In this document: piece after piece, positions 1,096 to 60,613 of the stretch | How positions within the stretch are numbered: position 1 is the first letter of the stretch | How the letters are laid out: each line of letters opens with the position of its first letter | Source: Bacteroidales bacterium | GTDB taxonomy: Bacteria > Bacteroidota > Bacteroidia > Bacteroidales > Muribaculaceae | DNA length: 64,000 nt | NCBI GenBank assembly: GCA_021205635.1 | Contig: JAJPXC010000095.1 | Location: 15,076 to 79,075, forward strand | Reading direction: 5' to 3' | Made by a program: the position numbers and the translations under genes | The notes under the pieces: model-generated | Databases searched by the model: none | Told to the model about the DNA's origin: nothing | What the model saw: the letters and a program-made list of their open reading frames with translations, nothing else

Positions 1096-1157
1096 CCCCC
1101 AAGGAGCCCACGGCCTCCCCGGCCCGCGACACCCATCAATTTACGATTTCGTAATCA

Positions 1158-1185
1158 CGTAATAACGTAATAACGTTATAACGAC
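1158..1185. repeat. (CGTWATAA)x3 array containing the palindromic word CGTTATAACG
   Basis: cgtaataa cgtaataa cgttataa cgac; CGTTATAACG recurs at 53717-53726 and a split version at 46167-46187. Confidence 0.8.
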
Positions 1186-1203: not shown

Positions 1204-1233
1204 AGCCCCGCCAGGCAATCGCCTAGCGGGGCT
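1204..1233. terminator. Hairpin AGCCCCGC-N14-GCGGGGCT between convergent genes
   Basis: 8-bp GC stem; no U-tract; member of a conserved-stem hairpin family (see findings). Confidence 0.5.
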
Positions 1234-1257
1234 ATTATACTTAATCACTAATCACTA
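1231..1257. repeat. 27-bp word GCTATTATACTTAATCACTAATCACTA (arm A of a perfect inverted repeat)
   Basis: Exact reverse complement of 2594-2620; a related copy lies at 13737-13766. Confidence 0.9.
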
Positions 1258-1261
1258 ACAC

Positions 1262-1939
1262 CTAAAACTTGATCTTAGTGGCTTTTCCGCCCTGTACCTT
1301 AATGTTGAGGCCCGATGCGGGGTTCTCCACGATACGGCCTTGCAGGTCGTAATAAGTGGCGGGAGCGTCGCTAGCGTCAACCGATACGCCCTTCACGCCG
1401 CCAAGGTTGTCGATCTTGTTTACCGAGAAATAGAGCTTGCAGGAGATGATTTCCAAGCCGCCGCGAACGGTGAACTTGCCCACCCAAGGACCCTTGGTGT
1501 ACTCTTCGGAGTTGATCTCAACAATCGACTCATCCTCATTGGCGAAAACGTAGGCGATATGCTCGGCGTAACCCGAATACGATTCGCCAGCGGCCAATGT
1601 GGCGCTGTTGGTCCAGCCAGCAAGGCAGTTGCCCAAAAGGCAGAAAGAAATGCCGGTGGGCACATCAAGCACCGACTCCTCGGTTACTTCCTCAAGCGTG
1701 GCCGTGACGTTGAGGCTGGTGGTGCCTTGGTTGGCGATCTTGATGTAGCAGGGAAGCTCGTATTCGTAGCCCTCATCGATGTCCTGGGGACCCCAAATGT
1801 TGATCAGGTCGCCGTCGTTGATTTCGGTGTACTCGGTCGACGAGCCGTTCCACTCGGTGGAGTAGCCAACGTAGAGGTTACCGGCGTTGGTGGTGAACAA
1901 GGTGCCCATAAGGGCCGTAGCGAGTAAAATTTTCTTCAT
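1262..1939 (-). CDS. Secreted hypothetical protein with T9SS C-terminal sorting domain
   Basis: ATG ORF 225 aa; signal peptide; last ~30 aa YYDLQGRIVENPASGLNIKVQGGKATKIKF fit the Por/T9SS CTD pattern; no catalytic motif recognised. Confidence 0.7.
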   Translation of the reverse strand: MKKILLATALMGTLFTTNAGNLYVGYSTEWNGSSTEYTEINDGDLINIWGPQDIDEGYEYELPCYIKIANQGTTSLNVTATLEEVTEESVLDVPTGISFCLLGNCLAGWTNSATLAAGESYSGYAEHIAYVFANEDESIVEINSEEYTKGPWVGKFTVRGGLEIISCKLYFSVNKIDNLGGVKGVSVDASDAPATYYDLQGRIVENPASGLNIKVQGGKATKIKF

Positions 1940-2113: not shown

Positions 2114-2596
2114 ATGAAAAAACTGATTTTCGCTATCGTGGCCCTGGCCATCGCTTTTGTCTCCCAAGCCCAACTCCCCTCAGTAAAACTGCGCGACATC
2201 AACGGCCAGACGGTCGATACCTCCACTCTCTCCAACGACGGCAAGCCCATGATTGTGAGCTTCTTCGCCACGTGGTGCAAGCCTTGCCTGCGCGAGTTGA
2301 AAGCAATCAACGAGGTTTACGAGGAGTGGCAGGAGGAAACCGGCGTGCGCCTGATCGCCGTGTCGATCGACGAGGGCCAGAACTCCTCCAAGGTGCGCCC
2401 CCTGGCCGAAAGCGAGGGCTGGGAATACCAAGTGCTACTCGACCCCAACGGCGAGATGAAGCGCGCCCTGGGCATCCAGATGATCCCCTACGTGATGGTG
2501 CTCGACGGCCAAGGCAACATTGTTTACCAGCATAACGGCTACACCGACGGCGGCGAGGAAGAACTGATTTCTAAAGTAAGAAGTCTTAGTGATTAG
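2114..2596 (+). CDS. TlpA/ResA-like periplasmic thiol-disulfide oxidoreductase
   Basis: Internal ATG at 2114 gives signal peptide MKKLIFAIVALAIAFVSQAQ; thioredoxin active site WCKPC; about 160 aa; the upstream 18 codons of the tracked ORF look non-coding. Confidence 0.85.
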   Translation: MKKLIFAIVALAIAFVSQAQLPSVKLRDINGQTVDTSTLSNDGKPMIVSFFATWCKPCLRELKAINEVYEEWQEETGVRLIAVSIDEGQNSSKVRPLAESEGWEYQVLLDPNGEMKRALGIQMIPYVMVLDGQGNIVYQHNGYTDGGEEELISKVRSLSD

Positions 2597-2620
2597 TGAT
2601 TAGTGATTAAGTATAATAGC
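2587..2620. repeat. (TAGTGAT)x3 array plus arm B of the 27-bp inverted repeat
   Basis: ttagtgattagtgattagtgattaagtataatagc; overlaps the tlpA-like stop codon. Confidence 0.9.
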
Positions 2621-4324: not shown

Positions 4325-4413
4325 AGGAGGTTGAAAGTTTAAGGTTTAAGGTTTAAAGTTAATGGCTTTAAAGATTTAAAGGTTTAAAGATTTAAAGGAT
4401 TAAAGAATAAAGG
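4325..4413. repeat. AT-rich cassette of TTTAAGG / TTTAAAG words ending at the start codon of 4419-5255
   Basis: ggaggttgaaagtttaaggtttaaggtttaaagttaatggctttaaagatttaaaggtttaaagatttaaaggattaaagaataaagg; homologous by eye to 41885-41950. Confidence 0.85.
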
Positions 4414-4418
4414 CGATA

Positions 4419-5255
4419 ATGAAGATTACTAGATATATACCCCTTTTGGCGGTGGCCGCGGTGATGTGGAGCTGCGACGAGGTGGACGAGGGCGACCGCT
4501 ACATCGAGATGCCCACCATCGAGGCGCAGAAGGCCGTGCTCGTGCTCGATTTCACAGGCCAGGAGTGCACCAACTGCCCCAAGGCCCACCTCTCGATCGA
4601 ATCGATGGAGGAGCAGTACGGCGACGCGTTCATCCCCGTGTCGATCCACGCCGGAGTGCAGAGCCTTTCCTACACCTCCACCCGCCGCGTGGGCCTGGCC
4701 ACACCGCTTGGCGAGACCTACGACACTTATTTCGGCATCGCTCCCCACGGCTACCCCTCGATCGTGGTGGATTACAACTCGTCGTCGATCTACTCCGGCA
4801 CAAGCAGCGAGTGGGTTGACCCGTGCCGCAATGCCATGGCCAAGGAAGCCGTCGTGCAGATTGAGGCCGAAGCCACCTGGTCGACCGATGCCGACGGCAA
4901 CGTCACCATCGACGTCGCCACCACCATGATGGCCTCGCAGGATCTCAAATGCAAGCTCCAGCTATGGATTATCGAGGATAGCATCGTGGCACCCCAGAAG
5001 GGCGTCGATGACAACCCCGGATGGGACAACACCTACGTGCACAACAACGTGCTCCGCGCCGCCATCAACGGCGATTGGGGACAAGATGTCAACCTCGATG
5101 ACAACGTCTACACTACCTCGTCGGCCTCGTTCACCATCACCACCGACTGGGAGAAAACCTGGGTGGTCGACAACCTGCGCGTAGTGGCCTTCTGCTACAC
5201 CGACGCCGACGGAGTCCTTCAGGCCATCCGCCAGCCCGTCCTCCCGGCCCTTTAA
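4419..5255 (+). CDS. Omp28-related thioredoxin-fold lipoprotein with CxxC
   Basis: ATG ORF 278 aa; lipobox ...AAVMWSC; VLVLDFTGQECTNCPKAH motif typical of Omp28-related proteins. Confidence 0.65.
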   Translation: MKITRYIPLLAVAAVMWSCDEVDEGDRYIEMPTIEAQKAVLVLDFTGQECTNCPKAHLSIESMEEQYGDAFIPVSIHAGVQSLSYTSTRRVGLATPLGETYDTYFGIAPHGYPSIVVDYNSSSIYSGTSSEWVDPCRNAMAKEAVVQIEAEATWSTDADGNVTIDVATTMMASQDLKCKLQLWIIEDSIVAPQKGVDDNPGWDNTYVHNNVLRAAINGDWGQDVNLDDNVYTTSSASFTITTDWEKTWVVDNLRVVAFCYTDADGVLQAIRQPVLPAL

Positions 5256-5283
5256 TCCTTTCCTCCTTTAAAGGATGAAAGGA
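5256..5283. repeat. 28-bp palindrome TCCTTTCCTCCTTT|AAAGGATGAAAGGA
   Basis: 13 of 14 arm positions pair, no loop; begins right after the stop codon of 4419-5255. Confidence 0.85.
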
Positions 5284-5327: not shown

Positions 5328-7739
5328 ATGAAAAAAAGTTTACTATTAGCATCTATGGCCGTTGCGCTGGGATTCATGGCGCAAGGCCAAGCCATCAACC
5401 CCCGCGCCTTGTGGATGGAGGGTGGCAAAATAGAGTCGCCCAAGGCCCAAGCCAAGGCCGTTCAGCCCAAGGCTGAAAGCTCCATGTGGTTCGGCTACTG
5501 CGGCGACCCCTACACCCTTGTGGGCGCCGGCTCCTACTACTGCACCGCCGCTATGGAGATCCCCGCTTCTACCGCCGCGGGCTTCGCCGGCTGCAAGATC
5601 GACGGCTTCCGCATGGTGTTCAAAACCGCTTCCGTCTCCAGCGCCACCCTCTTCGTGGGCAACTCCCTGGATACCGCTCCTAGCAACACCCAAACCATCT
5701 CGGTCGCTCTCAACTCCACCAACTGGCAGGAGTTTACCCTGAGCAACCCCGTCACCCTCGACGGCTCCACCGTATACATCGGCTTCGGCTACCAGGGTGT
5801 ATCGGGTGAGTATCCCATTGTGTTCGACGGATTGACCAACAGCAACAACCTGGGCGCTTGGCTCGGCCTCGGCAGCTCGTTCGCTGAATGCTTTGGCTCC
5901 TTTGACAGCTACACCGCATCCTACGGCAACGTCTGCATCCAGGCCCACATCACCGGCGACTTCCCCGAGGTGAACACCTACATCAGCGCTGTCACCGTTG
6001 ACCGCAACCGCGTGAAGCCCAACACCGCCTTTGACGCTACCGTAACCATCGCCAACATGGGTACCACCGACGTCACCAGCGTCACCGTTGACTACACGAT
6101 TGGCAACATTGCCGACACCTACACCTTCAACACCCCCTCGTTGGCTCCCTTGAAGTTCACCGAGTCGACCTTCTTCACCCTCTCAGGCCTCACGGTGCCC
6201 GATTTCGGCGAATACCCCTTGACCGTGAAATTGACCAAGGTCAACGGCGCCGATTGCGACGAGTCGACCGCCACAGTTAGCATCGTGGGCACTCGCAGCA
6301 ACAATCCCCGCATGATGGTTGTCGAGGAGGCCACCTCCATCGGCTGCGGCTACTGCCCCGTGGGCATCATCGGCCTTGAGTACATGAAGGAGCATTACGG
6401 CGACCAGTTCATCGGTATCGGCGTGCACGGAATCGGTCTGGGTTACGACCCCATGGTAAGCGCCTCCTATCAAGTTATGGACTACTATGTATCGAGCTAT
6501 CCTTCCTGTCTTACCAATCGTAACGACTCCTACGCCACCTATCCCAGCGCCTACTACCTGCTCGACTCCTACACCACCTACTTCAAGGACGCCTACGCAG
6601 CCGCCGACGTTACGATCGACGCCGAGTGGACCACCCAGGAGAAGTCGGGCGTGAAGGTTACCACCAACGCGGTATTCGACCTCGACCACGCCTCGAGCGA
6701 CTACCGCTGGGCTTACGTGGTGATTGAAAATCAAGTAGGTCCCTACAAGCAGTCCAACTATTACAACGGTGAATCGGGTTACGGCGACTGGTCATCCGCT
6801 GGTTCATCGGTATCTTGGTTGTTTGACGAAGTTGGCCGCAGCATCAACTCGTTCTGGGGCGTGCAAGGCTCAGTGCCCTCGGCTATCACCGCCGGCAACA
6901 GCTACGAGAACAGCGGCGAGCTCCAAGTGCTCGACCTGATCAACTACTACGACGAATACGTTGAGGTTAACCCCGAAAACATCGAGGTAATCGGCATGCT
7001 GATCGACTACACAACCGGTGAGGTGGTTACGGCCGCCCGCATCGACGCCGCCGACATCAAGGCTTGCTCCGACCCCAACGCCATGCACTACCAGAAGATC
7101 ATCTTCGACCCCGACCTTGAGGGCAATGTCACCATCGGTTCTTCGTTGACTATCGAAGCAACTTCCACCTCCGGTCTGCCAGTCACCATCGGCATCTCCT
7201 CGGGCGATGAGTACGCTACCCTTGAGGGCAACGTGATCACCTTCAACGCCGCCGGCACCGTAGTTGTCACCCTCTCGCAGGACGGCAACGACACCTATAT
7301 GCCCGCTACCTCGCGCACCATCACCTTCAAGGTGCTCAAGGATCAAACCATCACCTGGGATCAGGACCTCTCCAATTGCGAGATCGGCAAGAGCTACGCC
7401 CTTACCGCCAAGTCGTCGGCCAACCTGACCATCACCTACTCGATCAAGGAGGACACCACCGTCGCCAAGATCCAGAAGACCTCCCGCGGCACCTCGCTCG
7501 TGTTCAATGAGGCTGGCACAGTCACCGTTGTGGCTACTCAGGAAGGCAATTCAACCTACGCTCCCGCGCAAATGGAGAAGGTTGCCTCTACCCAGTCGGG
7601 CGTGATCTCGATTGACGCCGACGAGCTCCAGGATGCCATGCTCTACAACCTCCAGGGCGTTCGCGTCAACAACCCCCAAGCCGGCCGCATCTACATTATG
7701 GTCACCGGCTCCTCCGCCCAGAAAGTCCTAATCATATAG
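5328..7739 (+). CDS. Large T9SS cargo protein with central Omp28-like CxxC thioredoxin-fold domain and Ig-like repeats
   Basis: ATG ORF 803 aa; signal peptide; MMVVEEATSIGCGYCPVG motif; two ~90-aa repeats (ITFN/VFNEAGTV..V..QEGN.TY.PA); CTD ...LYNLQGVRVNNPQAGRIYIMVTGSSAQKVLII. Confidence 0.65.
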   Translation: MKKSLLLASMAVALGFMAQGQAINPRALWMEGGKIESPKAQAKAVQPKAESSMWFGYCGDPYTLVGAGSYYCTAAMEIPASTAAGFAGCKIDGFRMVFKTASVSSATLFVGNSLDTAPSNTQTISVALNSTNWQEFTLSNPVTLDGSTVYIGFGYQGVSGEYPIVFDGLTNSNNLGAWLGLGSSFAECFGSFDSYTASYGNVCIQAHITGDFPEVNTYISAVTVDRNRVKPNTAFDATVTIANMGTTDVTSVTVDYTIGNIADTYTFNTPSLAPLKFTESTFFTLSGLTVPDFGEYPLTVKLTKVNGADCDESTATVSIVGTRSNNPRMMVVEEATSIGCGYCPVGIIGLEYMKEHYGDQFIGIGVHGIGLGYDPMVSASYQVMDYYVSSYPSCLTNRNDSYATYPSAYYLLDSYTTYFKDAYAAADVTIDAEWTTQEKSGVKVTTNAVFDLDHASSDYRWAYVVIENQVGPYKQSNYYNGESGYGDWSSAGSSVSWLFDEVGRSINSFWGVQGSVPSAITAGNSYENSGELQVLDLINYYDEYVEVNPENIEVIGMLIDYTTGEVVTAARIDAADIKACSDPNAMHYQKIIFDPDLEGNVTIGSSLTIEATSTSGLPVTIGISSGDEYATLEGNVITFNAAGTVVVTLSQDGNDTYMPATSRTITFKVLKDQTITWDQDLSNCEIGKSYALTAKSSANLTITYSIKEDTTVAKIQKTSRGTSLVFNEAGTVTVVATQEGNSTYAPAQMEKVASTQSGVISIDADELQDAMLYNLQGVRVNNPQAGRIYIMVTGSSAQKVLII

Positions 7740-7760
7740 TGGTGAGTGGTGAGTGGTGAG
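7740..7760. repeat. (TGGTGAG)x3 heptamer array
   Basis: Starts 1 nt after the stop codon of 5328-7739. Confidence 0.9.
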
Positions 7761-7866
7761 TGACCATTGAATGAGCCGCAACGCGGCGAGTTGGCAATAA
7801 CCCCGGGTGACCGAGCGCAGCGAGGGAACCTGGGGTTAACCATGAGATTTTTAACCTATCTACTTA

Positions 7867-7928: not shown

Positions 7929-8003
7929 ATTTAGTTGTCACTCGTTTCCTCGAAATGTCGTTTACTCTTGCATTCGAGAAATCGATTTCGAATACACGAA
8001 TGC

Positions 8004-8062
8004 ACGAATAAACGAATAAACGACTTCCCCTCACCTAACAACTAACAACTAACAACTAACAA
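8004..8062. repeat. (ACGAATAA)x2 and (CTAACAA)x4 arrays
   Basis: 8004-8023 and 8035-8062, just upstream of the HAD promoter box. Confidence 0.9.
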
Positions 8063-8077
8063 CTTAAGTTTTTTTCG

Positions 8078-13600: not shown

Positions 13601-13662
13601 CCACCCCCGGCAACATCTACATCCGCCGCCAAGGCACGCAAGTATCAAAAATCAAGCTTTAA
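10636..13662 (+). CDS. Glycoside-hydrolase-like family 10 (GHL10/DUF187) protein with C-terminal extension, T9SS cargo
   Basis: ATG ORF 1008 aa; signal peptide; REMRSTWLATVWAIDWP and following ~370 aa resemble GHL10 TIM-barrel proteins; long Ser/Thr/Tyr-rich beta region; CTD VEYYNLQGIRVAQPTPGNIYIRRQGTQVSKIKL. Confidence 0.7.
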   Translation: MKKSLRALAALALAALLSTPTPASADTKREMRSTWLATVWAIDWPSSTGTSSSVITKQKKELTDYLDQMVETNMTSVCFQVRSMCDAMYNSSYEPWSSYLTGSRGTNPGWDPLSFCVEECHKRGIECYAWVNPYRYSTGSNWTTTQDKALENGGYILTYGTTKILNPGLEYCRQRIVNVCQEIITNYAVDGILFDDYFYPNGIPESSSAEDYTLWKNSGTSLSFGNWRRSNVNQMVKDVYDMIQASRPDVRFGIAPAGGAGADYASYPGMPKPGTWSDWQYSGIYSAPLAWMNAGTVDFISPQLYWSCDHSTNPFGPMCSWWSQAAELFNRHFYASHSLSEIASSSSPSTVIADRVQQVGYNRQYTPNNAPGSIFYSQKNFNSSMRAALLADYFSKPALTPVITWKTADNYSAPASGSHSGTTLTWSAVTNSSRSNAIIRYSVYAVPTTTDLDNAKGADGDGISVDYLQGVSYSTTYTLDSSKKSGYWYAICVLDGYGNEFEPLLIDYPSYSETTAPSLISPANGEGLADEVAFSWSNAGADTYDLQISATSDFSTIKYSLNTSTTTALVGGGYLGVGTWYWRVVANKSGYKSAASSSRKFILTSISVGSYEPGYSIITDGCDYSASTAFSVKNDWIRSTASSFGNFTTESDGVLNRTFVAVGDYLYLSGRTENASSATCYLGKYDRYTGEHISDIILGSAASMSYYPCNTVLRDEAGHVMIANLTLNISSTPLVIQAVDLETGDLTTLASLTYSGGGRVDHAAVYGDISSSTYYIFAMVASSNTLLRWKVSNGTANSGNAYTMATPYNNAANVGIAPLVIPVSASQVLINGQNIALTRYKVSNGNIVGSFNDADSSVKPSSSTGNGGSFFNLGDSYFMVYPSDTAADGHHFTIVTTDSDYSFASMANPVKIPGCGLGTVNSTTAIAQTDYVLNSDGTSAGVYVYAPGNGFSAYTISTATSGVNTIQGIVDSTAPVEYYNLQGIRVAQPTPGNIYIRRQGTQVSKIKL

Positions 13663-13695
13663 GCTTGATTTTTGATACTTGAGGATAAAGTATCA
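13647..13695 (+). terminator. Two consecutive perfect hairpins spanning the GHL10 stop codon
   Basis: 13-bp arms AAAAATCAAGCTT/AAGCTTGATTTTT around the TAA (13647-13673), then TGATACTT-N7-AAGTATCA (13673-13695). Confidence 0.5.
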
Positions 13696-13709
13696 AGGAT
13701 AAAGGATAC

Positions 13710-15571: not shown

Positions 15572-15606
15572 TGCGCATTGTGCATTGTGCACTGTGCATT
15601 GTGCAC
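15572..15606. repeat. (TGYGCAY)x5 heptamer array
   Basis: tgcgcat tgtgcat tgtgcac tgtgcat tgtgcac; preceded by the hairpin ATGCGCAGC...GCTGCGCAT (15547-15578). Confidence 0.9.
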
Positions 15607-15678: not shown

Positions 15679-15996
15679 TCACTTCTCGTCGCTCTTCGTG
15701 CCCTCGTGCTCGTAGATCTTGGCCACGAGCAGTTCGGCCTGCTGAACGCCTACGGTGCGCCATACGGGCTTGCCGCATTTGAACAGGATCAGCGTGGGCA
15801 CTGATTGGACGTGATACTGGGCGGCCAGCTCCTGGTTGCGATCGATGTCGATTTTGACTATCGTGCCGTGGTCGCCGATTTTCTCTTTCACTTGCTCAAG
15901 GATTGGGCTCTGCATCTTGCAAGGGCCGCACCATGTGGCGTAGAAGTCGACCAAGGTCGGCTTTTCGCTGTTGATTATGTCAGTAAACTGGCTCAT
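15679..15996 (-). CDS. trxA: Thioredoxin
   Basis: ATG ORF 105 aa; canonical WCGPCK active site and thioredoxin length. Confidence 0.95.
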   Translation of the reverse strand: MSQFTDIINSEKPTLVDFYATWCGPCKMQSPILEQVKEKIGDHGTIVKIDIDRNQELAAQYHVQSVPTLILFKCGKPVWRTVGVQQAELLVAKIYEHEGTKSDEK

Positions 15997-16005
15997 AGTA
16001 TATAA

Positions 16006-16040
16006 GTTTTCAGTTTTCAGTTGTTAGTTTTTAGTTGTTA
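16006..16040. repeat. (GTTKTYA)x5 heptamer array
   Basis: gttttca gttttca gttgtta gttttta gttgtta; the same word as at 60503-60537. Confidence 0.9.
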
Positions 16041-16061
16041 GGGTCTTCTTTATTCCTTTTG

Positions 16062-16089
16062 TCCTTTCATCCTTTAAAGGATTAAAGGA
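16062..16089. repeat. 28-bp palindrome TCCTTTCATCCTTT|AAAGGATTAAAGGA
   Basis: 13 of 14 arm positions pair; lies in the trxA/dapA divergent region. Confidence 0.85.
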
Positions 16090-16224
16090 GGGGGGCCTGA
16101 GGGCTATTAGTAAAAATAGAACAATATAGGGCGCGGTGGGGTTTTTGGCGTTTCGGGTTTTTAACAAATTTGGCTGAAAAAGGGAAAATCGTTAACTTCG
16201 CGGCGGATTCCAAAAACAATTCCT

Positions 16225-22043: not shown

Positions 22044-22121
22044 CCTAGGGGGGCCGGCCTTGGACGGCCATCACGCGCCAGCCCTAGGGGGGCCGCCCTT
22101 GGACGGCCATCACGCGCCAGC
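22044..22121. repeat. 39-bp GC-rich tandem duplication (2 copies, 38 of 39 identical)
   Basis: CCTAGGGGGGCCG[G/C]CCTTGGACGGCCATCACGCGCCAGC twice; ends 4 nt before the tatC stop codon. Confidence 0.9.
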
Positions 22122-22125
22122 CCAG

Positions 22126-24243: not shown

Positions 24244-24267
24244 CGAAAAGAATGAATCATATAAAAA

Positions 24268-24376
24268 GGATGAAGGATGAAGGATGAAGGGTGAAGGCCC
24301 CGTCTACTCCCCTTCCCTTTCCTCCTTTACTCCTTTCCTCCTTTAACGATTTAACGATTTAACGATTTAACGATTT
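24268..24376. repeat. (GGATGAA)x4 purine arm, CCTTYCCTTT-type pyrimidine arm, then (AACGATTT)x4
   Basis: 24268-24297 purine words; 24308-24344 complementary pyrimidine words; 24345-24376 octamer array; ends 15 nt before the glnK ATG. Confidence 0.85.
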
Positions 24377-24391
24377 AAAAAATCCCCCAAG

Positions 24392-24748
24392 ATGAAAAAA
24401 ATCGAAGCGATTATACGCAAAACCAAGTTTGAGGATGTCAAGGAAGCCCTTCTGGAGGCCGACATCGAGTGGTTCAGCTATTACGAGGTGCGTGGCGTGG
24501 GCAAGACCCGCCAGGCTCGCATCTACCGCGGCGTGATGTACGACACAAGCTCCATCGAGCGCATCCAGCTGTCGATCGTCGTGCGCGACATCAACGCCGA
24601 GAAAACCGTGCGCGCCATCCTCGCGGCGGCCCAGACCGGCGAGATCGGCGACGGCCGCATCTTCGTGCTCCCCGTCGAGGACTCTATCCGTATCCGCACC
24701 GGCGAGCGCGGCGACATCGCCCTTTACAACGCCGAGCATTCCAAGTAA
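24392..24748 (+). CDS. glnK: P-II nitrogen regulatory protein
   Basis: ATG ORF 118 aa; MKKIEAIIR..., T-loop region GVGKTRQARIYRG, C-terminal GDGRIFV..RIRTGE; linked to amtB. Confidence 0.93.
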   Translation: MKKIEAIIRKTKFEDVKEALLEADIEWFSYYEVRGVGKTRQARIYRGVMYDTSSIERIQLSIVVRDINAEKTVRAILAAAQTGEIGDGRIFVLPVEDSIRIRTGERGDIALYNAEHSK

Positions 24749-24780: not shown

Positions 24781-26172
24781 ATGAAAATTCTTACTTCAAA
24801 ATACACACGCCGCGCTGGCCTGCTGCGCGCGGCTACTGTGGCAGCGGCCCTGCTCGCCGCGCCAGCACTGATGGCTGAAGGCCCCGGCACCGACAACCTC
24901 CCCGACCCCTCGGAGACCATCCTCCAACTGTCGGACGGCCTCAACACCGTGTGGATGCTCTTGGCCGCCATGCTCGTGTTCTTCATGCAGCCCGGTTTTG
25001 CCCTCGTGGAGGCCGGCTTCACCCGCACCAAAAATACCGCCAATATCCTTATGAAGAACTTTGTCGACTTCACTCTCGGAGCGTTGCTGTTCTGGTTCAT
25101 CGGCTTCGGGTTGATGTTCGGCGACGGCGGTTTCTTGGGCTGTCCCCACTTGTGCGACTATGAGTTCTGGAGCGGCGACGGGCTACCCTCGGCCGGATTC
25201 CTCGTGTTCCAGACGGTATTCTGCGCCACCGCGGCCACGATCGTATCGGGCGCCATGGCCGAGCGCACCAAGTTCTCGATGTACCTTGTCTACACCGTCT
25301 GCATCTCGGTGATTGTCTACCCCATCTCGGGTCACTGGACCTGGGGCGGTGGCTGGTTGATGAACGACACCGACGGCTCGTTTATGATGGACACCTTCGG
25401 GTGCGCATTCCACGACTTCGCCGGCTCCACAATCGTTCACTCCGTTGGTGGTTGGATCGCCCTTGTTGGCGCCGCCATTCTCGGCCCCCGCATCGGCAAA
25501 TACGGCAAGGACGGCAAGTCGAAAGCCATCCCCGGCCACAACTTGACGATCGCTGCCCTGGGAGTGTTCATCCTGTGGTTCGGGTGGTTCGGCTTCAACC
25601 CCGGCTCACAGCTTGCCGCCGCCACTCCCGACGACCAAGTGGCCATCTCCTCCGTGTTCTTGACCACCAACCTCGCCGCTTGTGCCGGTGGTTTCATGGC
25701 CCTCGCCGTCAGCTGGATCAAGTACGGCAAGCCCTCGCTGTCGCTTACTCTTAACGGTATTCTTGCCGGCTTGGTGGGTATCACCGCCGGGTGCGACGCC
25801 GTAGCCGCTTGGGCCGCAGTAGCAATCGGAGCCATTTGCGGCACCGTGATGATCTTCTCGGTAGAGTTTATTGACCGCGTGCTTAAGATCGACGACCCAG
25901 TGGGCGCAAGCTCAGTGCATGGCGTGTGCGGCTTCTTGGGTACAATCCTCACCGGCTTGTTCGCCACCGAGGGCGGACTGTTCCTCGGCGGAGGCTGGGG
26001 CATGTTCTTCGCTCAGCTCTTTGGAGCCGTGGTAGTGGGTTGCTGGGCAGCCGGCGCTGGCTTCATCATCTTCAAGGTGCTTGACAAGGTACACGGCCTG
26101 CGCGTAGAGCACCGCATCGAGGAGGAAGGCCTCGACATCTACGAGCACGGCGAATCAGCCTACAACATCTAA
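24781..26172 (+). CDS. amtB: Ammonium transporter
   Basis: ATG at 24781 gives a signal-like N-terminus MKILTSKY...; motifs FQTVFCATAATIVSGAMAERTKF and HSVGGWIALVGAAILGPRIGKY; the tracked start at 24469 overlaps glnK in another frame and is rejected. Confidence 0.93.
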   Translation: MKILTSKYTRRAGLLRAATVAAALLAAPALMAEGPGTDNLPDPSETILQLSDGLNTVWMLLAAMLVFFMQPGFALVEAGFTRTKNTANILMKNFVDFTLGALLFWFIGFGLMFGDGGFLGCPHLCDYEFWSGDGLPSAGFLVFQTVFCATAATIVSGAMAERTKFSMYLVYTVCISVIVYPISGHWTWGGGWLMNDTDGSFMMDTFGCAFHDFAGSTIVHSVGGWIALVGAAILGPRIGKYGKDGKSKAIPGHNLTIAALGVFILWFGWFGFNPGSQLAAATPDDQVAISSVFLTTNLAACAGGFMALAVSWIKYGKPSLSLTLNGILAGLVGITAGCDAVAAWAAVAIGAICGTVMIFSVEFIDRVLKIDDPVGASSVHGVCGFLGTILTGLFATEGGLFLGGGWGMFFAQLFGAVVVGCWAAGAGFIIFKVLDKVHGLRVEHRIEEEGLDIYEHGESAYNI

Positions 26173-26290
26173 TCAAGTGATAAGTTTTAGTGATTAGTGA
26201 TACTTAAAACTTATTTTTTCTGCTTTTCATTTTTTGCGAATTACCTGCTGTAAATTTGGGATCCCGTCGAGCCGTCGAGGCTAGGCGGGA

Positions 26291-27859
26291 TCAATTTTTG
26301 TATCGGGTGGGGGTGATGTGGCGGTAGAGGTAGAGGATCCCGTCGCGCCACGAGTCGTAGACAAACTTCACCTCCTTGCGGTAACGTATCGAGCCGATGA
26401 TAATCATCGTGATGATACCTAACAACACAGCCAACGCGAACAACTCCTTCAACGACAGCATCATAGCCTGACGCACAATCTCGCTCATAGCATCGCCAAT
26501 CGGCACATGCGACGACGTAACAGCGTTGGCCGAATTCCCCAGGAGCGCGATATTGTGCTTCAAAGCGCCCTTGAAGAAGAAACCAAACACGGCGCATCCC
26601 AAGGCCGTCCCGGCCCCTATTCGGGCGAAGCCCAGTATCGTCAACGCGTGGAAACGGTGCTCCAACGGCACAACGCCCTCAATATAGGTGGTCAGCACCA
26701 CAAACAAAAGAACATGCCCCATGCCGAAAAGAAACAACGGCAACCACATGTGGTGCAGAGCCGTGTCGGGTGAAATCAGCAGACACATCGAGATGGCGTA
26801 CATCGTCAACAGCAACACGCACAGCAGCGTCAAATTCTTCACGCCAATTCCCAGATGCTCGATAGCATAGTAACCAAACCATCCGCCGGCAATCAACCCC
26901 AACAGCACCGCCACCTTCAGCGAGATTGATCCATAGGGGTCGAAATCCAGCACCTCATGGGTAAAAATATGCTGTAACGTGCTCTCGGTGCTCATCATCA
27001 CGCAAGCAATCAAGAATACCACAGTGATAGTCACCACATTACGGTAGCGGAACGCCTTGAATGGAATATATGCCCCCGGATTGCCCGTCGTGCGGGCAAC
27101 AATCACCCCAAGTGTCAAGAGGATGACACCAACAGCCACATTAATATATGGCGAGTTGAACCAGTCGAGATTGTCGCCATAGACGCAGATGAACGTGAAC
27201 GCCAGCAACACGATGGCCCACAGCACCAAGCCCACCCAGCTGATGCCGGCCAGGCCCTGCTTGGGTATCGGCCGGAAATCGCGCATTCCGAAGAAAGCCA
27301 CGCAGGCCATCACCAATTGCAAGCCAATCGTGAGGTAATGCATGTGCTTCCACGTGGCGATATGCACAATCCACACGCCGATAATTCCCGAAATCTCAAT
27401 TGCGCAGAACACCACAAGGAATACCACAGCCAAAAACGGCGCGAAGTTGTACCTCGGCGCCACCTTGAGCATTATCGACGAGAAGCCCTCAAAGGACCCC
27501 CACAACTTAAGCACGCCAAACAGGAAACTCAAGATTATCAGCACCGGCACGCATCGGATGTGCATGCATATGCAACTGATTGTGGCCATGCCAAGGCACA
27601 CCATCAGGAAAATCTTACGGGTGGTAAAGCGGAATTTCAAGCGGAACAGGATCGGGAACGTCATCGTCACCCCAATCATACCCGCATAGCCGCAGAAAAG
27701 TATATCCTCGTTCCACAGAGACAGCGCCGACGACACCTCGGTGGACAACCCCATAAACATGGGATCGGACATCTGAAACACCAGCGGGAACATCAATATA
27801 ATCCAAAAGCGCCACCCCTCGGGCACGCTCCTGCGGAACATCGGCAGGGAGAAAGCCAT
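26291..27859 (-). CDS. MFS efflux transporter (EmrB/DHA2-like, 14-TM class)
   Basis: ATG ORF 522 aa; polytopic; start overlaps the stop of the upstream HlyD gene by 1 nt (TAATG). Confidence 0.7.
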   Translation of the reverse strand: MAFSLPMFRRSVPEGWRFWIILMFPLVFQMSDPMFMGLSTEVSSALSLWNEDILFCGYAGMIGVTMTFPILFRLKFRFTTRKIFLMVCLGMATISCICMHIRCVPVLIILSFLFGVLKLWGSFEGFSSIMLKVAPRYNFAPFLAVVFLVVFCAIEISGIIGVWIVHIATWKHMHYLTIGLQLVMACVAFFGMRDFRPIPKQGLAGISWVGLVLWAIVLLAFTFICVYGDNLDWFNSPYINVAVGVILLTLGVIVARTTGNPGAYIPFKAFRYRNVVTITVVFLIACVMMSTESTLQHIFTHEVLDFDPYGSISLKVAVLLGLIAGGWFGYYAIEHLGIGVKNLTLLCVLLLTMYAISMCLLISPDTALHHMWLPLFLFGMGHVLLFVVLTTYIEGVVPLEHRFHALTILGFARIGAGTALGCAVFGFFFKGALKHNIALLGNSANAVTSSHVPIGDAMSEIVRQAMMLSLKELFALAVLLGIITMIIIGSIRYRKEVKFVYDSWRDGILYLYRHITPTRYKN

Positions 27860-37547: not shown

Positions 37548-37608
37548 TTTCCTCCTTTAATCCTTTCTTCCTTTACTTTATCCTTTATCCTTCATCCTTC
37601 ATCCTTTT
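37548..37608. repeat. 61-nt polypyrimidine (plus-strand) word array; on the minus strand it is the purine-rich leader of the epimerase gene
   Basis: The minus strand reads aaaaggatgaaggatgaaggataaaggataaagtaaaggaagaaaggattaaaggaggaaataa; it contains (GGATGAA)x2, as at 24268. Confidence 0.85.
37551..37556 (-). promoter_or_regulatory. Canonical Shine-Dalgarno AGGAGG, 9 nt upstream of the epimerase ATG
   Basis: The minus strand reads AAAGGAGGAAATAAGTGATG; this is the only gene in the window where I see a full SD at proper spacing. Confidence 0.5.
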
Positions 37609-37672
37609 GAATCGGTAGAAGGTGTGTTCGATTAAGGCCGCGGTGTCAATCGAATACTCCTTCTACCGATTC
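37609..37672. other. Hairpin with perfect 14-bp stem spanning the mrcA stop codon
   Basis: GAATCGGTAGAAGG (37609-37622) / CCTTCTACCGATTC (37659-37672); inner TTCGATT/AATCGAA stem; the stop codon is at 37646-37648. Confidence 0.6.
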
Positions 37673-40604: not shown

Positions 40605-41879
40605 ATGAAAGTAGACGTGCTTTTAGGCCTCCAATGGGGCGACGAGGGTAAAGGGAAGGTAGTCGATGTGCTCACCCCCCGTTACGACGCTGTAGCCCGC
40701 TTCCAAGGCGGACCCAACGCTGGCCACACTCTTGAGTTTGAGGGCAAAAAATATGTGCTCCGCTCAATCCCCTCGGGCATTTTCCAACATGGCCAAATCA
40801 ATATCATCGGCAACGGCGTCGTGCTCGACCCCGTGCTCTTCGCCGAGGAGGCACGCGCCCTCGAGGCAAGCGGTGTCGACCTCAAAAAGGTGCTCAAAAT
40901 ATCCCGCAAGGCCCACCTGATACTCCCTACCCACCGCCTGCTCGACGCCGCCAACGAGCGTGCCAAGGGAGGCGCAAAAATCGGCACCACCGGAAAGGGC
41001 ATCGGTCCCACATATACCGACAAGGTGAGCCGCAACGGCCTGCGCTTGGGCGACATCGACCTCGATTTCGACACCCGTTACGCCGCAGCTCGCGACCGTC
41101 ACCTGCGCCAATTGGAGCAGATGGGTGACGCGGCCGACATGGAGGCGTTGCGTCAAGCCGAGGTCAAGTTCATGGAGGCCATCGACTACATCCGCGGATA
41201 TGAAATCGTCGATTCCGAGTGGCTAATCAACGACCTCCTGACTCAGGGCAAGAGCGTGCTTTGCGAGGGCGCCCAGGGCACCATGCTCGACGTTGATTTC
41301 GGCTCCTACCCGTTCGTCACCTCCAGCAACACGGTCTGCGCCGGCGCCTGCTCAGGCCTTGGCGTGGCTCCCAACCGCATCGGGGACGTTTTCGGCATCT
41401 TCAAGGCTTACTGCACCCGCGTAGGCTCCGGCCCGTTCCCCACCGAGCTCCACGACGAGACCGGCAAGCGCATCCGCGACCTCGGCCACGAATACGGCGC
41501 CGTCACCGGTCGTGAGCGCCGTTGCGGATGGATCGACCTCGTCGCCCTGCGCTACGCAATCATGATCAACGGCGTCACCAAGCTCATCATGATGAAGAGC
41601 GACGTCCTCGACGACTTCGATACAATCAAGGCCTGCGTGGGCTACGAAATCGACGGCAAGGTCACCGACCGCTTCCCCTACTCTATCGACGACGAGGCCG
41701 CGATCAAGCCCGTCTACGAGGAACTCCCCGGCTGGAAGACCGACATGACCAAAATGCGATCCGAGCAGGAGTTCCCACAGGAGTTCAGCGATTATCTGGC
41801 GTTCCTCGAGTGCAAGCTCGGAGTGCCTATCGCAATCGTCTCCATCGGCCCCGACCGCGAGCAAACAATTCTGAGATAA
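40605..41879 (+). CDS. purA: Adenylosuccinate synthetase
   Basis: ATG at 40605; MKVDVLLGLQWGDEGKGKVVD, GTTGKGIGPTY, TGRERRCGWID. Confidence 0.97.
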   Translation: MKVDVLLGLQWGDEGKGKVVDVLTPRYDAVARFQGGPNAGHTLEFEGKKYVLRSIPSGIFQHGQINIIGNGVVLDPVLFAEEARALEASGVDLKKVLKISRKAHLILPTHRLLDAANERAKGGAKIGTTGKGIGPTYTDKVSRNGLRLGDIDLDFDTRYAAARDRHLRQLEQMGDAADMEALRQAEVKFMEAIDYIRGYEIVDSEWLINDLLTQGKSVLCEGAQGTMLDVDFGSYPFVTSSNTVCAGACSGLGVAPNRIGDVFGIFKAYCTRVGSGPFPTELHDETGKRIRDLGHEYGAVTGRERRCGWIDLVALRYAIMINGVTKLIMMKSDVLDDFDTIKACVGYEIDGKVTDRFPYSIDDEAAIKPVYEELPGWKTDMTKMRSEQEFPQEFSDYLAFLECKLGVPIAIVSIGPDREQTILR

Positions 41880-41884
41880 AGTTG

Positions 41885-41986
41885 TAAGTTAAAAGTTGAA
41901 AGTTAAAGGTTTAAGGTTAAATGATTAATAGATTAAAGCTTTAAAGAATAAGCCATTAACCATTAACCATTGACCATTAACCATTA
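41885..41986. repeat. Second copy of the AT-rich cassette plus a (CCATTRA)x5 array, ending at the DUF1015 start codon
   Basis: aagttaaaagttgaaagttaaaggtttaaggttaaatgattaatagattaaagctttaaagaataa, then ccattaa ccattaa ccattga ccattaa ccattaa. Confidence 0.85.
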
Positions 41987-42000
41987 AATAACCGATTACC

Positions 42001-53640: not shown

Positions 53641-53679
53641 CCTCACGCGGCAGCCTCACGCGGCAGCCTCACGCGGCAG
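53641..53679. repeat. (CCTCACGCGGCAG)x3 13-mer tandem array
   Basis: Three perfect copies downstream of mutB. Confidence 0.9.
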
Positions 53680-53747
53680 CCCTCATTAAATTGCGTCTTT
53701 CGTTATCACATAATTACGTTATAACGTTATTACGACTCTACCAATCC

Positions 53748-60468: not shown

Positions 60469-60502
60469 GAAAAGATGGAATTATGGTTTAAGATTTTACT
60501 AA

Positions 60503-60537
60503 GTTTTCAGTCTTCAGTTTTCAGTTTTCAGTCTTCA
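60503..60537. repeat. (GTYTTCA)x5 heptamer array
   Basis: gttttca gtcttca gttttca gttttca gtcttca. Confidence 0.9.
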
Positions 60538-60551
60538 GTATAGGGGCTTAA

Positions 60552-60613
60552 CTCCTTTAATCCTTTTCTCCTTTCCTCCTTTAAAGGAAGAAAGGATTAA
60601 AGGAGAAAAGGGG
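60552..60613. repeat. 62-nt imperfect palindrome with core TCCTTTCCTCCTTT|AAAGGAAGAAAGGA
   Basis: Core at 60569-60596 (13 of 14); about 25 of 31 arm positions pair overall; lies between the MFS stop and the GH13 start. Confidence 0.8.

What the first reader, a model, noticed from the sequence alone, without database searches (positions are those of the whole stretch)
24268..24376. Intergenic spacers are filled with 7-8 nt period micro-tandem arrays that reuse the same words at distant loci
Seen: short perfect or near-perfect tandem arrays occupy many spacers. They are (CGTWATAA)x3 1158-1181, (TAGTGAT)x3 2587-2607, (TGGTGAG)x3 7740-7760, (ACGAATAA)x2 8004-8023, (CTAACAA)x4 8035-8062, (TGYGCAY)x5 15572-15606, (GTTKTYA)x5 16006-16040, (GGATGAA)x4 24268-24297, (AACGATTT)x4 24345-24376, (TAGTGAT)x2 26188-26201, (GGATGAA)x2 on the minus strand 37589-37604, (CCATTRA)x5 41952-41986 and (GTYTTCA)x5 60503-60537. 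Identical words recur at unlinked loci: GTTTTCA at 16006 and 60503, GGATGAA at 24268 and 37589, TAGTGAT at 2587, 26188 and inverted at 1241. Arrays start within 0-2 nt of stop codons or end right at start codons, and they are AT-rich in a GC-rich genome. Inference: simple slippage would not reuse the same words at different loci. The pattern suggests dispersed elements or selection, for example for unstructured AT-rich translation-initiation leaders in an SD-independent organism, for protein or RNA binding sites, or for copy-number variable spacers.
Basis: partly seen in the sequence, partly recalled or inferred. Interest (0 to 1): 0.6.

Follow-up and report, generated by a model that had tools for sequence, protein, structure and literature searches.

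The report
Heptamer arrays: arms of IVS-like cassettes
The short 7-8-base tandem repeats that fill the gene spacers of this gut Muribaculaceae genome are real and genome-wide, and most look like the paired or orphaned arms of small selfish gene cassettes, which suggests where the long-unexplained bacterial heptamer repeats may come from.

Summary
The pattern is genome-wide in this 3.0 Mb, 55% GC Muribaculaceae MAG. About 680 period-7/8/14/16 arrays cover 5.4% of intergenic DNA. They are 23-36 times denser there than in genes and 10-25 times above dinucleotide shuffles. A small vocabulary is reused: 81% of heptamer arrays lie within one mismatch of ten words.

Eight of those ten words are the inverted arms of intact, low-GC cassettes. 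Each cassette carries a PF05635 (23S-rRNA-IVS/Avd-like) ORF and sits between co-directional genes. The T/G-rich 5' arm is fused to the upstream stop codon. The A/C-rich 3' arm ends a few bases before the downstream ATG. Solo arrays follow the same geometry (93:8 versus 23:95, p=1e-29).

The start-proximal class, (AAACTGA)n/(AAACTAG)n, is strand-specific and predicted unstructured. It almost never shares a spacer with a promoter motif.

Arrays are confined to three species of one genus. They turn over between species but are identical among strains.

Verdict: a new variant of known heptamer repeats (TAACTGA, STRR, GGGAATC) with a testable origin. No reads or RNA data were available.

The parts
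1150..1183 (.). (CGTAATAA)x4.2 octamer array in a convergent spacer
   Evidence: TRF. It lies 54 nt after the stop at 1095 and 78 nt from the stop of gene 1262-1939(-).
1242..1258 (-). (TAATCAC)x2.4, read as (TTAGTGA)n on the minus strand. A solo 5'-arm-type array 3 nt after the stop of gene 1262-1939(-).
   Evidence: The same word plus the AGTATAATAGC tail forms the 5' arm of PF05635 cassettes in G013 and G043.
2586..2609 (+). (TTAGTGA)x3.4 solo 5'-arm-type array. It contains the TAG stop codon (2594-2596) of gene 2114-2596.
   Evidence: It is the exact inverse of 1231-1257 because both follow the stops of genes on opposite strands.
4337..4413 (+). (GTTTAAAG/ATTTAAAG)n self-complementary octamer array, 12 nt after the stop at 4324
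   Evidence: TRF. Palindromic pairs are reported.
5249..5271 (+). (CCTTTAAT)x2.9 array overlapping the stop codon of gene 4464-5255
7738..7762 (+). (AGTGGTG)x3.6 stop-fused heptamer array. TGA occurs in all three frames.
   Evidence: The array begins inside the TAG stop codon at 7737-7739.
7958..8023 (+). Inverted pair of (TCGTKYAY)/(CGAATRMA) octamer arms, 28 nt each and 82% complementary, forming an ORF-less hairpin
   Evidence: the repeat finder. TRF gives 7989-8023.
8035..8064 (+). (CTAACAA)x4.3 3'-arm/leader-type array, 29 nt before the ATG at 8094
   Evidence: The same word is the 3' arm of the intact cassette G043:C42.
13682..13708 (+). (AGGATAA)x3.9 purine-rich array, 19 nt after the stop at 13662
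   Evidence: The orthologous spacer in species L001 has an expanded (AAGGATA)n array.
15575..15605 (.). (GCATTGT)x4.4 array in a convergent spacer
   Evidence: In the sister species L001 it is replaced by (TTGACTC)n and CGTGTATT arrays.
16003..16041 (-). (TGAAAAC/TAACAAC/TAAAAAC)n leader array on the minus strand, ending 6 nt before the thioredoxin ATG at 15996
   Evidence: It is identical in 6 other assemblies and is replaced by a GC-rich palindrome in the sister species.
16045..16090 (-). CCTTT/AAAGG octamer hairpin, 14-15 nt arms, 87-93% complementary
   Evidence: TRF gives 16054-16089.
24266..24297 (+). (AAGGATG)x4.6 purine-rich 5' arm, the array named in the finding
   Evidence: It pairs with 24316-24345 in the RNA fold (whole spacer -37 kcal/mol). 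The same word pair flanks a PF05635 ORF in G013:C4.
24316..24345 (+). (CCTTTMCT/CCTCCTTT)x3.8 pyrimidine-rich 3' arm of the same ORF-less hairpin
   Evidence: It is kept in the orthologous spacers of G013 and G043. About 50 dispersed matches per relative genome.
24342..24378 (+). (TTTAACGA)x4.6 octamer array, 13 nt before the P-II (glnB-like) ATG at 24392
   Evidence: The array is orthologous in G013 and G043 with 3 copies and unit variants.
26176..26201 (+). (AGTGATT)x3.9 5'-arm-type array, 3 nt after the ammonium-transporter stop at 26172
37553..37607 (-). (TCCTTTA/TCCTTCA)x7.9 on the plus strand, read as (TAAAGGA/TGAAGGA)n on the transcribed minus strand, 38 nt after the stop at 37646
41878..41928 (+). 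(AAAGTTG TAAGTTA)n 5'-arm-type array starting inside the stop codon at 41877-41879
   Evidence: It is 79% complementary to 41963-41981.
41953..41987 (+). (CCATTAA)x5 3'-arm-type array, 13 nt before the ATG at 42001
   Evidence: The same word is the 3' arm of the intact cassette at G000 contig C21.
53701..53734 (+). (CGTTATWA)x4 octamer array
60500..60541 (-). (CTGAAAA/CTGAAGA)x6 leader array on the minus strand, 31 nt before the GH13 alpha-amylase ATG at 60468
   Evidence: It is predicted unpaired in the spacer fold.
60547..60611 (-). CCTTT/AAAGG octamer hairpin, 28-29 nt arms, 83-86% complementary, 6 nt after the MFS-transporter stop

Best explanation
The micro-arrays are a clade-specific family of heptamer and octamer tandem repeats.

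Shown:
- In their complete form, two arrays form the inverted arms of a small selfish cassette resembling a 23S-rRNA intervening sequence. The cassette is a low-GC, roughly 100-125 aa PF05635 (S23p/Avd-like four-helix-bundle) ORF. It sits in a spacer between co-directional genes and relies on their transcription.
- Its 30-70 nt arms can pair into a stem of about 50 bp.
- The 5' arm is T/G-rich, carries stop codons in all three frames and is fused to the upstream gene's stop codon. The 3' arm is its A/C-rich complement and ends a few bases before the downstream ATG.
- Most of the roughly 680 arrays are now ORF-less hairpins or solo arms, yet they keep this position and orientation.

Inferred:
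- Arms spread with the cassettes. They then grow, shrink and homogenise by slippage.
- Selection keeps only what an operon junction tolerates: stop-bearing words after ORFs, and ATG-free, G-poor, unstructured A-rich words before start codons. In an organism that does not use Shine-Dalgarno pairing, the latter can serve as ribosome loading leaders.
- How the cassettes move is unknown.
For: 1. Intact cassettes exist.
- G000 has 7 PF05635 hits; 4 score 100-135 bits against a cut-off of 33.8.
- The hit DNA is 31-40% GC. The ORFs are co-directional with both neighbouring genes.
- They are flanked by inverted arrays: (AGTTTCT)n/(AAACTAG)n, (TGGTTAA)9/(CCATTAA)7 and (AGCATTT)n/(GCTAAAT)n.
- The C21 cassette folds with a stem of about 52 bp (-148 kcal/mol).
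- G013 and G043 carry 5-6 cassettes each. Their arms are (TTAGTTG)/(CAACTAA), (AAAGTTT)/(AAACTTT), (AAGGATK)/(MATCCTT), (TTAGTGA)/(TAATCAC) and (ATTTCAC)/(GTGAAAT).

2. 316 of 389 heptamer arrays lie within one mismatch of ten arm words.

3. Solo arrays follow the cassette geometry. Arrays in 5'-arm orientation sit next to a stop 93 times and a start 8 times. Arrays in 3'-arm orientation sit next to a stop 23 times and a start 95 times (odds ratio 48, p=1.3e-29).

4. Arms travel with the ORF. At one orthologous spacer, G000 has one ORF variant with TGGTTAA arms. G013 and G043 have another variant with TTAGTGA arms.

5. Cassette count tracks array density within the genus.
- Cassette hits: 7, 5 and 6 in the array-rich G000, G013 and G043, against 1, 0 and 1 (weak) in G071, G095 and G118.
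- Array density was measured by TRF only in G000, G013, G043 and G071. For G095 and G118 only the absence of (AAACTGA)3 was checked.

6. Arrays are insertions. Junctions that are 60-136 nt and array-filled in G000 are plain 13-51 nt spacers in the array-free congener G071.

7. Signs of selection.
- 85% of stop-proximal and start-proximal units carry a sense-strand stop codon, against 46% expected.
- Sense ATG occurs in 4.5% of start-proximal units, against 12% expected.
- The leader class is always the last array before the ATG (C>E 19:0, B>E 12:0, D>E 8:0).
- Leaders are predicted unpaired (0.70 versus 0.50, p=3e-25).
- A TAnnTT[TC]G promoter motif occurs in 3 of 74 leader-array spacers against 267 of 902 others (p=1e-7).
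Against: - Only 3 same-word inverted pairs enclose an ORF, and only 17 are tight hairpins. More than 90% of arrays are solo, and how solo arms arise is not shown.
- No intact cassette with the commonest word, AAACTGA, was seen. Only ORF-less (TCAGTTT)n...(CTGAAAA)n hairpins were found.
- The tight CCTCCTTT->AAAGGAKK hairpins have the opposite arm order to the one purine/pyrimidine cassette seen.
- PF05635 has no known mobility function.
- No RNase III domain was detected in five genomes of the genus. IVS-type excision is therefore not supported here.
- Cassettes might instead insert into arrays that were already there.
- Promoter and leader inferences rest on motif and folding predictions and on my own gene calls.
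Confidence: 0.58

Rival explanations
1. The arrays are an independent, selected punctuation system for operon junctions: stop arrays, hairpins and unstructured leaders. They are made by slippage and spread by gene conversion. The PF05635 cassettes are secondary guests that insert into the loops of pre-existing inverted arrays.
For: - Most arrays are solo or ORF-less.
- The order of array classes is kept at orthologous spacers while the words change.
- Leaders are predicted unstructured and avoid promoter-bearing spacers.
- AAACTGA has no intact cassette.
Against: - Arms co-vary with the ORF variant at the same site.
- Eight of the ten main words are cassette arms.
- Array-free congeners manage with plain 13-51 nt junctions, so no general need for such punctuation is evident.
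Confidence: 0.2
2. The arrays are a neutral by-product of a lineage-specific slippage or template-switch bias for 7-8 nt units. Selection removes them only from coding DNA.
For: - Heptamers are the commonest long simple-sequence repeat in many bacteria, and a polymerase-slippage cause has been proposed (Mrazek 2007, as cited in PMC4679880 and PMC4692102).
- Turnover between species is fast.
- Periods 9 and 10 are also 4-6 times above shuffles.
Against: - The same words occur at 20-70 loci without any enrichment of single copies.
- The bias in strand and position is strong.
- ATG is depleted and stop codons are enriched.
- Arrays are identical across 16 strain-level assemblies, so they are not hypermutable.
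Confidence: 0.1
3. The arrays are multimeric binding sites for a global RNA- or DNA-binding regulator. This was suggested for TAACTGA repeats, and heptad repeats are known at a toxin-gene promoter in Vibrio.
For: - Exact words are repeated in register close to start codons.
- MacGregor 2015 proposed S1, Csp or CsrA binding for TAACTGA.
- PF05635 proteins are Avd-like (PMC10053308). From memory, Avd is basic and binds nucleic acid, so the cassette protein could itself be the binder.
Against: - No CsrA and no RRM_1 protein in G000, G013, G043 or G071.
- At least ten unrelated words would need ten specificities.
- No binding data exist.
Confidence: 0.08
4. The arrays are phase-variable contingency loci whose copy number switches expression of the neighbouring gene.
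For: The unit length is not a multiple of three, and the arrays lie near start codons.
Against: - Array sequences are identical in 10 + 6 independent assemblies or contigs of the species.
- The neighbouring genes are housekeeping genes: thioredoxin, P-II, dapA and a GH13 amylase.
- Hundreds of loci are involved.
Confidence: 0.03

Closest known systems
TAACTGA intergenic heptamer direct repeats of marine Beggiatoaceae, some cyanobacteria and five Bacteroidetes (MacGregor 2015, PMC4679880)
   Same: - Heptamer tandem sets of 2-6 or more copies, intergenic, in forward orientation, ending a few nt before start codons.
- No link between single-copy occurrences and repeat sets.
- Patchy lineage distribution.
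- The main word here, AAACTGA, differs from TAACTGA by one base.
   Different: - Here there is a vocabulary of about ten words, not one.
- There is a second, complementary set fused to stop codons.
- There are hairpin-forming octamers.
- There is a demonstrated association with PF05635 cassettes.
- (AAACTGA)3 is essentially private to three species.
G-rich heptamer SSRs GGGAATC / GGGGA(C/T)T of Xanthomonas and Nostoc (Rehm 2015, PMC4692102), and cyanobacterial STRR heptamers (Calothrix PCC7601, cited there)
   Same: - Over-represented intergenic heptamer arrays using one word at more than 100 loci.
- They lie close to the 3' end of the upstream ORF, mostly between co-directional genes.
- Length and sequence vary between close species at conserved sites.
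   Different: - Those repeats are G-rich and quadruplex-prone. These are AT-rich, carry stop codons, and come in complementary pairs.
- No cassette link is mentioned in the passages I read.
23S rRNA intervening sequence (IVS) with an S23p ORF (Coxiella burnetii, Leptospira; Warrier 2016, PMC4990558)
   Same: - A selfish element of about 430 nt.
- A PF05635 ORF in the loop.
- Terminal inverted repeats forming a long stem. The Coxiella stem is 28 bp; here it is up to about 52 bp.
   Different: - It sits in mRNA spacers between protein genes, not in 23S helices.
- The stems are built from tandem heptamers.
- No RNase III domain was detected in this genus, so excision is doubtful.
- Hundreds of ORF-less and solo derivatives exist.
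REP/BIME elements of enterobacteria (from memory)
   Same: Hundreds of short, hairpin-forming mosaic modules sit in intergenic regions of operons and after stop codons.
   Different: REPs are unique palindromes of about 35 nt mobilised by RAYT transposases. They are not tandem 7-8 nt arrays. RAYT genes were not searched for here.

Membership tests
Bacterial long simple-sequence repeats of 5-11 nt (heptamer SSR / STRR type) | Head-to-tail tandem copies of a 5-11 nt unit, well above chance | tested here: met
   TRF found 333 period-7 and 226 period-8 intergenic arrays. Shuffles gave 6-18 and 16-25.
Bacterial long simple-sequence repeats of 5-11 nt (heptamer SSR / STRR type) | Strong intergenic bias for units whose length is not a multiple of 3 | tested here: met
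   Periods 7 and 8 are 36 and 23 times denser in intergenic DNA. Periods 6, 9 and 12 show ratios of only 0.5-1.6.
Bacterial long simple-sequence repeats of 5-11 nt (heptamer SSR / STRR type) | The same unit reused at many unlinked loci in a restricted lineage | tested here: met
   AAACTGA forms 70 arrays and AAACTAG 38. (AAACTGA)3 is abundant in only 3 of 301 Muribaculaceae genomes and occurs in 1 of 200 other Bacteroidota genomes.
TAACTGA repeat family (MacGregor 2015) | Unit sequence TAACTGA | tested here: not met
   The main unit is AAACTGA, with variants AAACTAG and AAACTAA. It differs from TAACTGA at one base.
TAACTGA repeat family (MacGregor 2015) | Forward orientation, ending within a few nt upstream of a start codon | tested here: met
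   Orientation is 47 sense to 3 antisense, with a median of 9 nt to the ATG. 83 of 157 arrays end within 30 nt of a same-strand start.
23S rRNA IVS-type selfish element | PF05635 (S23p) ORF inside the element | tested here: met
   Four hits of 100-135 bits (cut-off 33.8) in G000, and 5-6 hits each in G013 and G043. This holds for about 1% of arrays only; the rest are ORF-less.
23S rRNA IVS-type selfish element | Terminal inverted repeats forming a long stem | tested here: met
   Inverted heptamer arms flank the ORFs. The C21 cassette forms a stem of about 52 bp.
23S rRNA IVS-type selfish element | Inserted in a 23S rRNA helix | tested here: not met
   All cassettes lie between protein-coding genes. 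A pattern for the conserved 16S 3' end found nothing in the MAG. 23S rRNA genes were not searched for, so rRNA copies cannot be judged.
23S rRNA IVS-type selfish element | Excised from the transcript by RNase III | tested here: inconclusive
   No PF14622 match in G000, and no PF00636 match in G000, G013, G043, G071 or G095. Both searches hit the B. thetaiotaomicron control. No RNA data were available.
Phase-variable contingency SSR | Copy number differs among strains or within populations | tested here: not met
   The P-II spacer is identical in 10 contigs. The trx spacer is identical in 6 contigs from other samples. Reads were not available.
MITE | Defined terminal inverted repeats with target-site duplication and a conserved internal sequence | tested here: inconclusive
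   Inverted arms are present. The flanks next to the arrays are not conserved between loci. Target-site duplications cannot be read within repeats.
Intrinsic terminator | GC-rich stem followed by a U tract | tested here: not met
   CCTTT/AAAGG stems are AU-rich and are followed by A-rich arrays. A separate GC-rich hairpin family occupies that role after many stops.

The most novel reading that the evidence does not exclude
Heptamer repeat arrays, an unexplained and widespread feature of bacterial genomes (STRR, TAACTGA, GGGAATC), are in origin the tandem-repeat stems of mobile Avd-like (PF05635) four-helix-bundle cassettes. The cassette protein recognises or propagates its own heptamer arms. 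Orphaned arms are then co-opted as stop-insulators, mRNA hairpins and Shine-Dalgarno-independent ribosome loading leaders at operon junctions.
Probability: 0.35. Interest if true: 0.8.

Novelty: new variant of a known kind. Interest (0 to 1): 0.62.

Why it matters
Intergenic heptamer repeats have been reported for about 35 years in cyanobacteria, Xanthomonas, Beggiatoaceae and some Bacteroidetes. The papers I read give no accepted origin or function.

This genome offers an unusually dense and orderly case:
- About 680 arrays drawn from roughly ten words.
- A fixed order of array classes along each spacer.
- Intact PF05635 cassettes, ORF-less hairpins and solo arms side by side.
- Array-free congeners available for comparison.

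This makes the origin question directly testable by a cassette-versus-array census and by occupied/empty site comparisons. It also supplies natural test sequences for how Bacteroidota start translation of internal cistrons without Shine-Dalgarno pairing.

For annotation, the results explain several apparent inverted repeats and odd spacers in this window.

Tried and rejected
Copy-number heterogeneity, transcription and RNA ends could not be examined.
- CsrA titration (the AAGGATG arrays resemble CsrB repeats) and Bacteroides-type RRM proteins as binders: neither family is present in G000, G013, G043 or G071.
- Amplification of a pre-existing leader motif: AAACT and ACTGA are not enriched as single copies in array-free leaders.
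- Phase variation: arrays are identical in 16 strain-level assemblies.
- Hairpins as intrinsic terminators: there is no U tract, and almost no promoter motif downstream.
- My first promoter test used only TAnnTTTG and gave 0 of 74. The clade also uses TAnnTTCG. With both motifs the depletion is 3 of 74 against 267 of 902, still strong but not absolute.
- RNase III processing, by analogy with the IVS: no RNase III domain was found in the genus.
- Literature: I found no paper linking Muribaculaceae or PF05635 to heptamer arrays.
- A sequence look-up in earlier scan notes found nothing.
- My first gene caller missed the low-GC PF05635 ORFs, and an early locus-file path failed.
Full report
**Source and gene calls**

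The window is C89:15076-79075 of a 3,000,873-bp, 172-contig, 55.4% GC assembly. A DapA search places it in Muribaculaceae. The best match is 97% to an 'uncultured Muribaculaceae' MAG, and Candidatus Homeothermus arabinoxylanisolvens matches at 85%. No gene caller was available. I built a crude one from ORFs and codon log-odds with start trimming. Stop positions are exact; start positions are approximate.

**Observation**

The pattern is genome-wide.

| Period | Intergenic arrays | Coding arrays | Density ratio |
|---|---|---|---|
| 7 | 338 | 51 | 36x |
| 8 | 229 | 54 | 23x |
| 14 | 71 | 8 | 46x |
| 16 | 44 | 4 | 54x |

- Periods 6, 9 and 12 show no such intergenic bias.
- These arrays cover 5.4% of intergenic DNA. 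About 30% of spacers longer than 60 nt carry at least one.
- Five dinucleotide shuffles of all intergenic DNA gave 6-18 period-7 arrays against 333 observed, and 16-25 period-8 arrays against 226.
- The vocabulary is small. AAACTGA forms 70 arrays, AAACTAG 38, AAAGGAGG 37, AAACTTT 35, AAAGGATT 24, AAATGCT 23, AACCATT 22 and AATCACT 20.

**Position, strand and order**

Words are not placed at random.
- (AAACTGA)n and its relatives lie on the sense strand 47:3 and end a median of 9 nt before a start codon. Of 157 such arrays, 83 end within 30 nt of a same-strand start.
- T/G-rich words begin a median of 3-9 nt after stop codons. These include (TAGCATT)n, (TAATGGT/TAGTGGT)n, (TGAGTGG)n, (TAAAGTT)n and (TAGTGAT)n. 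Of 144 stop-proximal arrays, 67 include the stop codon itself.
- 85% of stop-proximal and start-proximal units contain a sense-strand stop codon, against 46% expected from composition. Because the period is 7 or 8, this gives stops in all three frames.
- Sense ATG is depleted in start-proximal units (7 of 155, against 12% expected).
- In co-directional spacers the order is fixed: stop-fused heptamers, then (CCTCCTTT)n, then (AAAGGAKK)n or (TTTAAAGN)n, then (AAACTGA)n, then 3-10 nt, then ATG. The leader class is always last (19:0, 12:0, 8:0, 22:2).
- The CCTTT/AAAGG modules fold into imperfect hairpins of 20-25 bp. The leader arrays stay unpaired.
- Predicted unpaired probability over -25..+10 is 0.70 for 69 leader-array genes and 0.50 for 1,217 others (p=3e-25). 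Leader composition is 51% A and 9% G.
- Leader arrays are rare in divergent spacers (8 of 420, against 74 of 976 in co-directional ones).
- They almost never share a spacer with the Bacteroidota -7 promoter motif. With TAnnTT[TC]G the count is 3 of 74 against 267 of 902 (p=1e-7). They therefore mark promoter-less junctions that probably lie inside operons.

**Distribution and dynamics**

- (AAACTGA)3 occurs 48 times in this genome, 29 times in G043 and 12 times in G013, all of one genus and about 56% GC. It is absent from six other genomes of the genus, almost absent from 290 other Muribaculaceae, and present once in 200 other Bacteroidota.
- Sampled DNA of G013 and G043 has 31-33 period-7/8 arrays per 100 kb with the same words. 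The congener G071 (50.5% GC) has 6 per 100 kb with unrelated words.
- Between species (85-95% nt identity in genes), spacers without arrays are 95-100% conserved. Array spacers turn over: copy numbers differ and words are swapped (AAACTAG<->AAACTGA, TGGTTAA<->TGGTGAG, AAGGATA<->AGCATTT). The class at each position is usually kept.
- In the finding's own spacer, (AACGATTT/AAAGATTT)3-4 and (CCTCCTTT)n are present in all three species. (AGGATGA)n is replaced in G043 by (GCATTTA)4 fused to the stop codon.
- Within the species, 10 contigs covering the P-II spacer and 6 covering the trx spacer, from other samples and MAGs, are identical to the window. The arrays are therefore real and not hypermutable.
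- In array-free G071 the orthologous junctions are plain 13-51 nt spacers where G000 has 60-136 nt of arrays. The arrays are derived insertions.

**Origin**

I tested that idea here.
- G000 has seven PF05635 hits, four of them at 100-135 bits. My caller had missed them because they are 31-40% GC.
- Each strong hit is a 99-125 aa ORF lying between two co-directional genes and on the same strand as them.
- Each is flanked by inverted arrays from the main vocabulary:
  - C144: (AGTTTCT)n ... (AAACTAG)n-ATG.
  - C21: stop-(TGGTTAA)9 ... (CCATTAA)7-AAA-ATG.
  - C117: (AGCATTT)n ... (GCTAAAT)n.
  - C112: 19-mer arms.
- The C21 element folds with a stem of about 52 bp.
- G013 and G043 hold 5-6 cassettes each. 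Their arms are (TTAGTTG)/(CAACTAA), (AAAGTTT)/(AAACTTT), (AAGGATK)/(MATCCTT), (TTAGTGA)/(TAATCAC) and (ATTTCAC)/(GTGAAAT). G071, G095 and G118 have 1, 0 and 1 (weak) hits, and the G071 copy lacks heptamer arms.
- At the C21 site, G000 carries one ORF variant with TGGTTAA arms. G013 and G043 carry a different variant with TTAGTGA arms. Arms and ORF therefore travel together.
- Ten arm words account for 316 of 389 heptamer arrays.
- Solo arrays obey the cassette geometry. The 5'-arm orientation lies beside stops 93:8 and the 3'-arm orientation beside starts 95:23 (odds ratio 48, p=1.3e-29).
- This also explains features of the window:
  - 1242-1258 and 2586-2609 are two solo 5' arms after the stops of oppositely oriented genes.
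  - 24266-24345 is an ORF-less purine/pyrimidine hairpin.
  - 8035-8064, 41953-41987, 16003-16041 and 60500-60541 are 3'-arm/leader arrays.

**Limits**

- Only 27 same-word inverted pairs were detected: 17 tight hairpins and 3 ORF-bearing cassettes. Most arrays are solo, and how solo arms arise is inferred, not shown.
- AAACTGA has no intact cassette in the sampled DNA.
- PF05635 is Avd-like (PMC10053308) but has no known mobility function.
- In Coxiella the IVS is cut by RNase III in its 28-bp stem (PMC4990558). Here no RNase III domain was found in five genomes of the genus.
- CsrA and RRM proteins are absent.
- Reads and RNA data could not be used.

**Comparison with known systems**

The closest described systems are:
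- TAACTGA repeats (PMC4679880). They have the same placement before start codons, and the unit differs from AAACTGA by one base.
- GGGAATC / GGGGAYT repeats and STRR (PMC4692102).
- The S23p-bearing 23S IVS (PMC4990558).

This case is a new variant. It has a multi-word vocabulary, strand-specific placement with a fixed class order, confinement to one Muribaculaceae sub-clade, and a physical link to PF05635 cassettes. Literature searches found no report of that link. Earlier notes of this scan describe similar arrays in at least 28 other Bacteroidales genomes. I treated those notes as leads only.

**Verdict**

The best explanation is that the arrays are arms and remnants of IVS-like cassettes, filtered by what operon junctions tolerate (confidence about 0.58). 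Interest is 0.62.

Noticed in passing
whole genome G000 and congeners G013, G043, G071, G095: No RNase III domain was detected: PF14622 searched in G000 only, PF00636 in all five genomes (each at least 96% complete). Both searches hit B. thetaiotaomicron and seven other controls. The genus may lack canonical rnc.
   Followed up: partly
G000 contigs C1:4497-4642, C29:18554-18688, C52:19294-19425 and 26245-26578; L126 (sister species, trx-dapA spacer): A GC-rich dispersed hairpin, GGCCCCCAACCCCCGAAACGGGGGC(TTCCCATCCGGATGG), recurs just after stop codons, sometimes in tandem. In the sister species a palindromic copy replaces the whole array module upstream of trx.
   Followed up: partly
G013 loci L093, L094, L108 (orthologues of G000 C126, C141, C151 spacers): G013 spacers carry tandem copies of another hairpin element, (GTAGGAAGTCCCGCCGTGCCGGCGGGAC). 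It is absent from the orthologous G000 spacers. Each species therefore has its own extra repeat families.
   Followed up: no
window 1231-1257 and 2594-2620: Another reader noted a 'perfect 27-bp inverted repeat bracketing a divergent gene pair'. It is two solo 5' arms of the TTAGTGA + AGTATAATAGC family, each following the stop codon of a gene on the opposite strand. It is not one element enclosing the genes.
   Followed up: partly
genome-wide upstream regions; e.g. window 16190-16210: The -7 promoter motif of this clade is often TAnnTTCG (as in TAACTTCGCG) rather than TAnnTTTG. In the sense strand of upstream regions, TAnnTT is followed by CG 164 times, against 89 in antisense.
   Followed up: partly
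G000 contig C21:3245-3610 (minus strand): The PF05635 ORF runs into its own 3' arm. Its last residues, ...KPLTINH, are encoded by (CCATTAA)n, so part of an array is translated.
   Followed up: no
window 22044-22123 and 53641-53681: GC-rich tandem repeats of a different kind: 39 bp x2.1 at 97% identity, and a perfect 13-mer x3.2. They do not belong to the AT-rich 7-8 nt vocabulary.
   Followed up: no
L007, L021, L024, L072, L077 (other Bacteroidales dapA loci): Isolated heptamer arrays occur next to dapA in unrelated Bacteroidales. Examples are (CAATTAT)x9 right after the dapA stop in two Paludibacter-like MAGs and (AATTGTC)x4.6 before dapA in Parabacteroides massiliensis. The phenomenon exists at low density well beyond this clade.
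   Followed up: no
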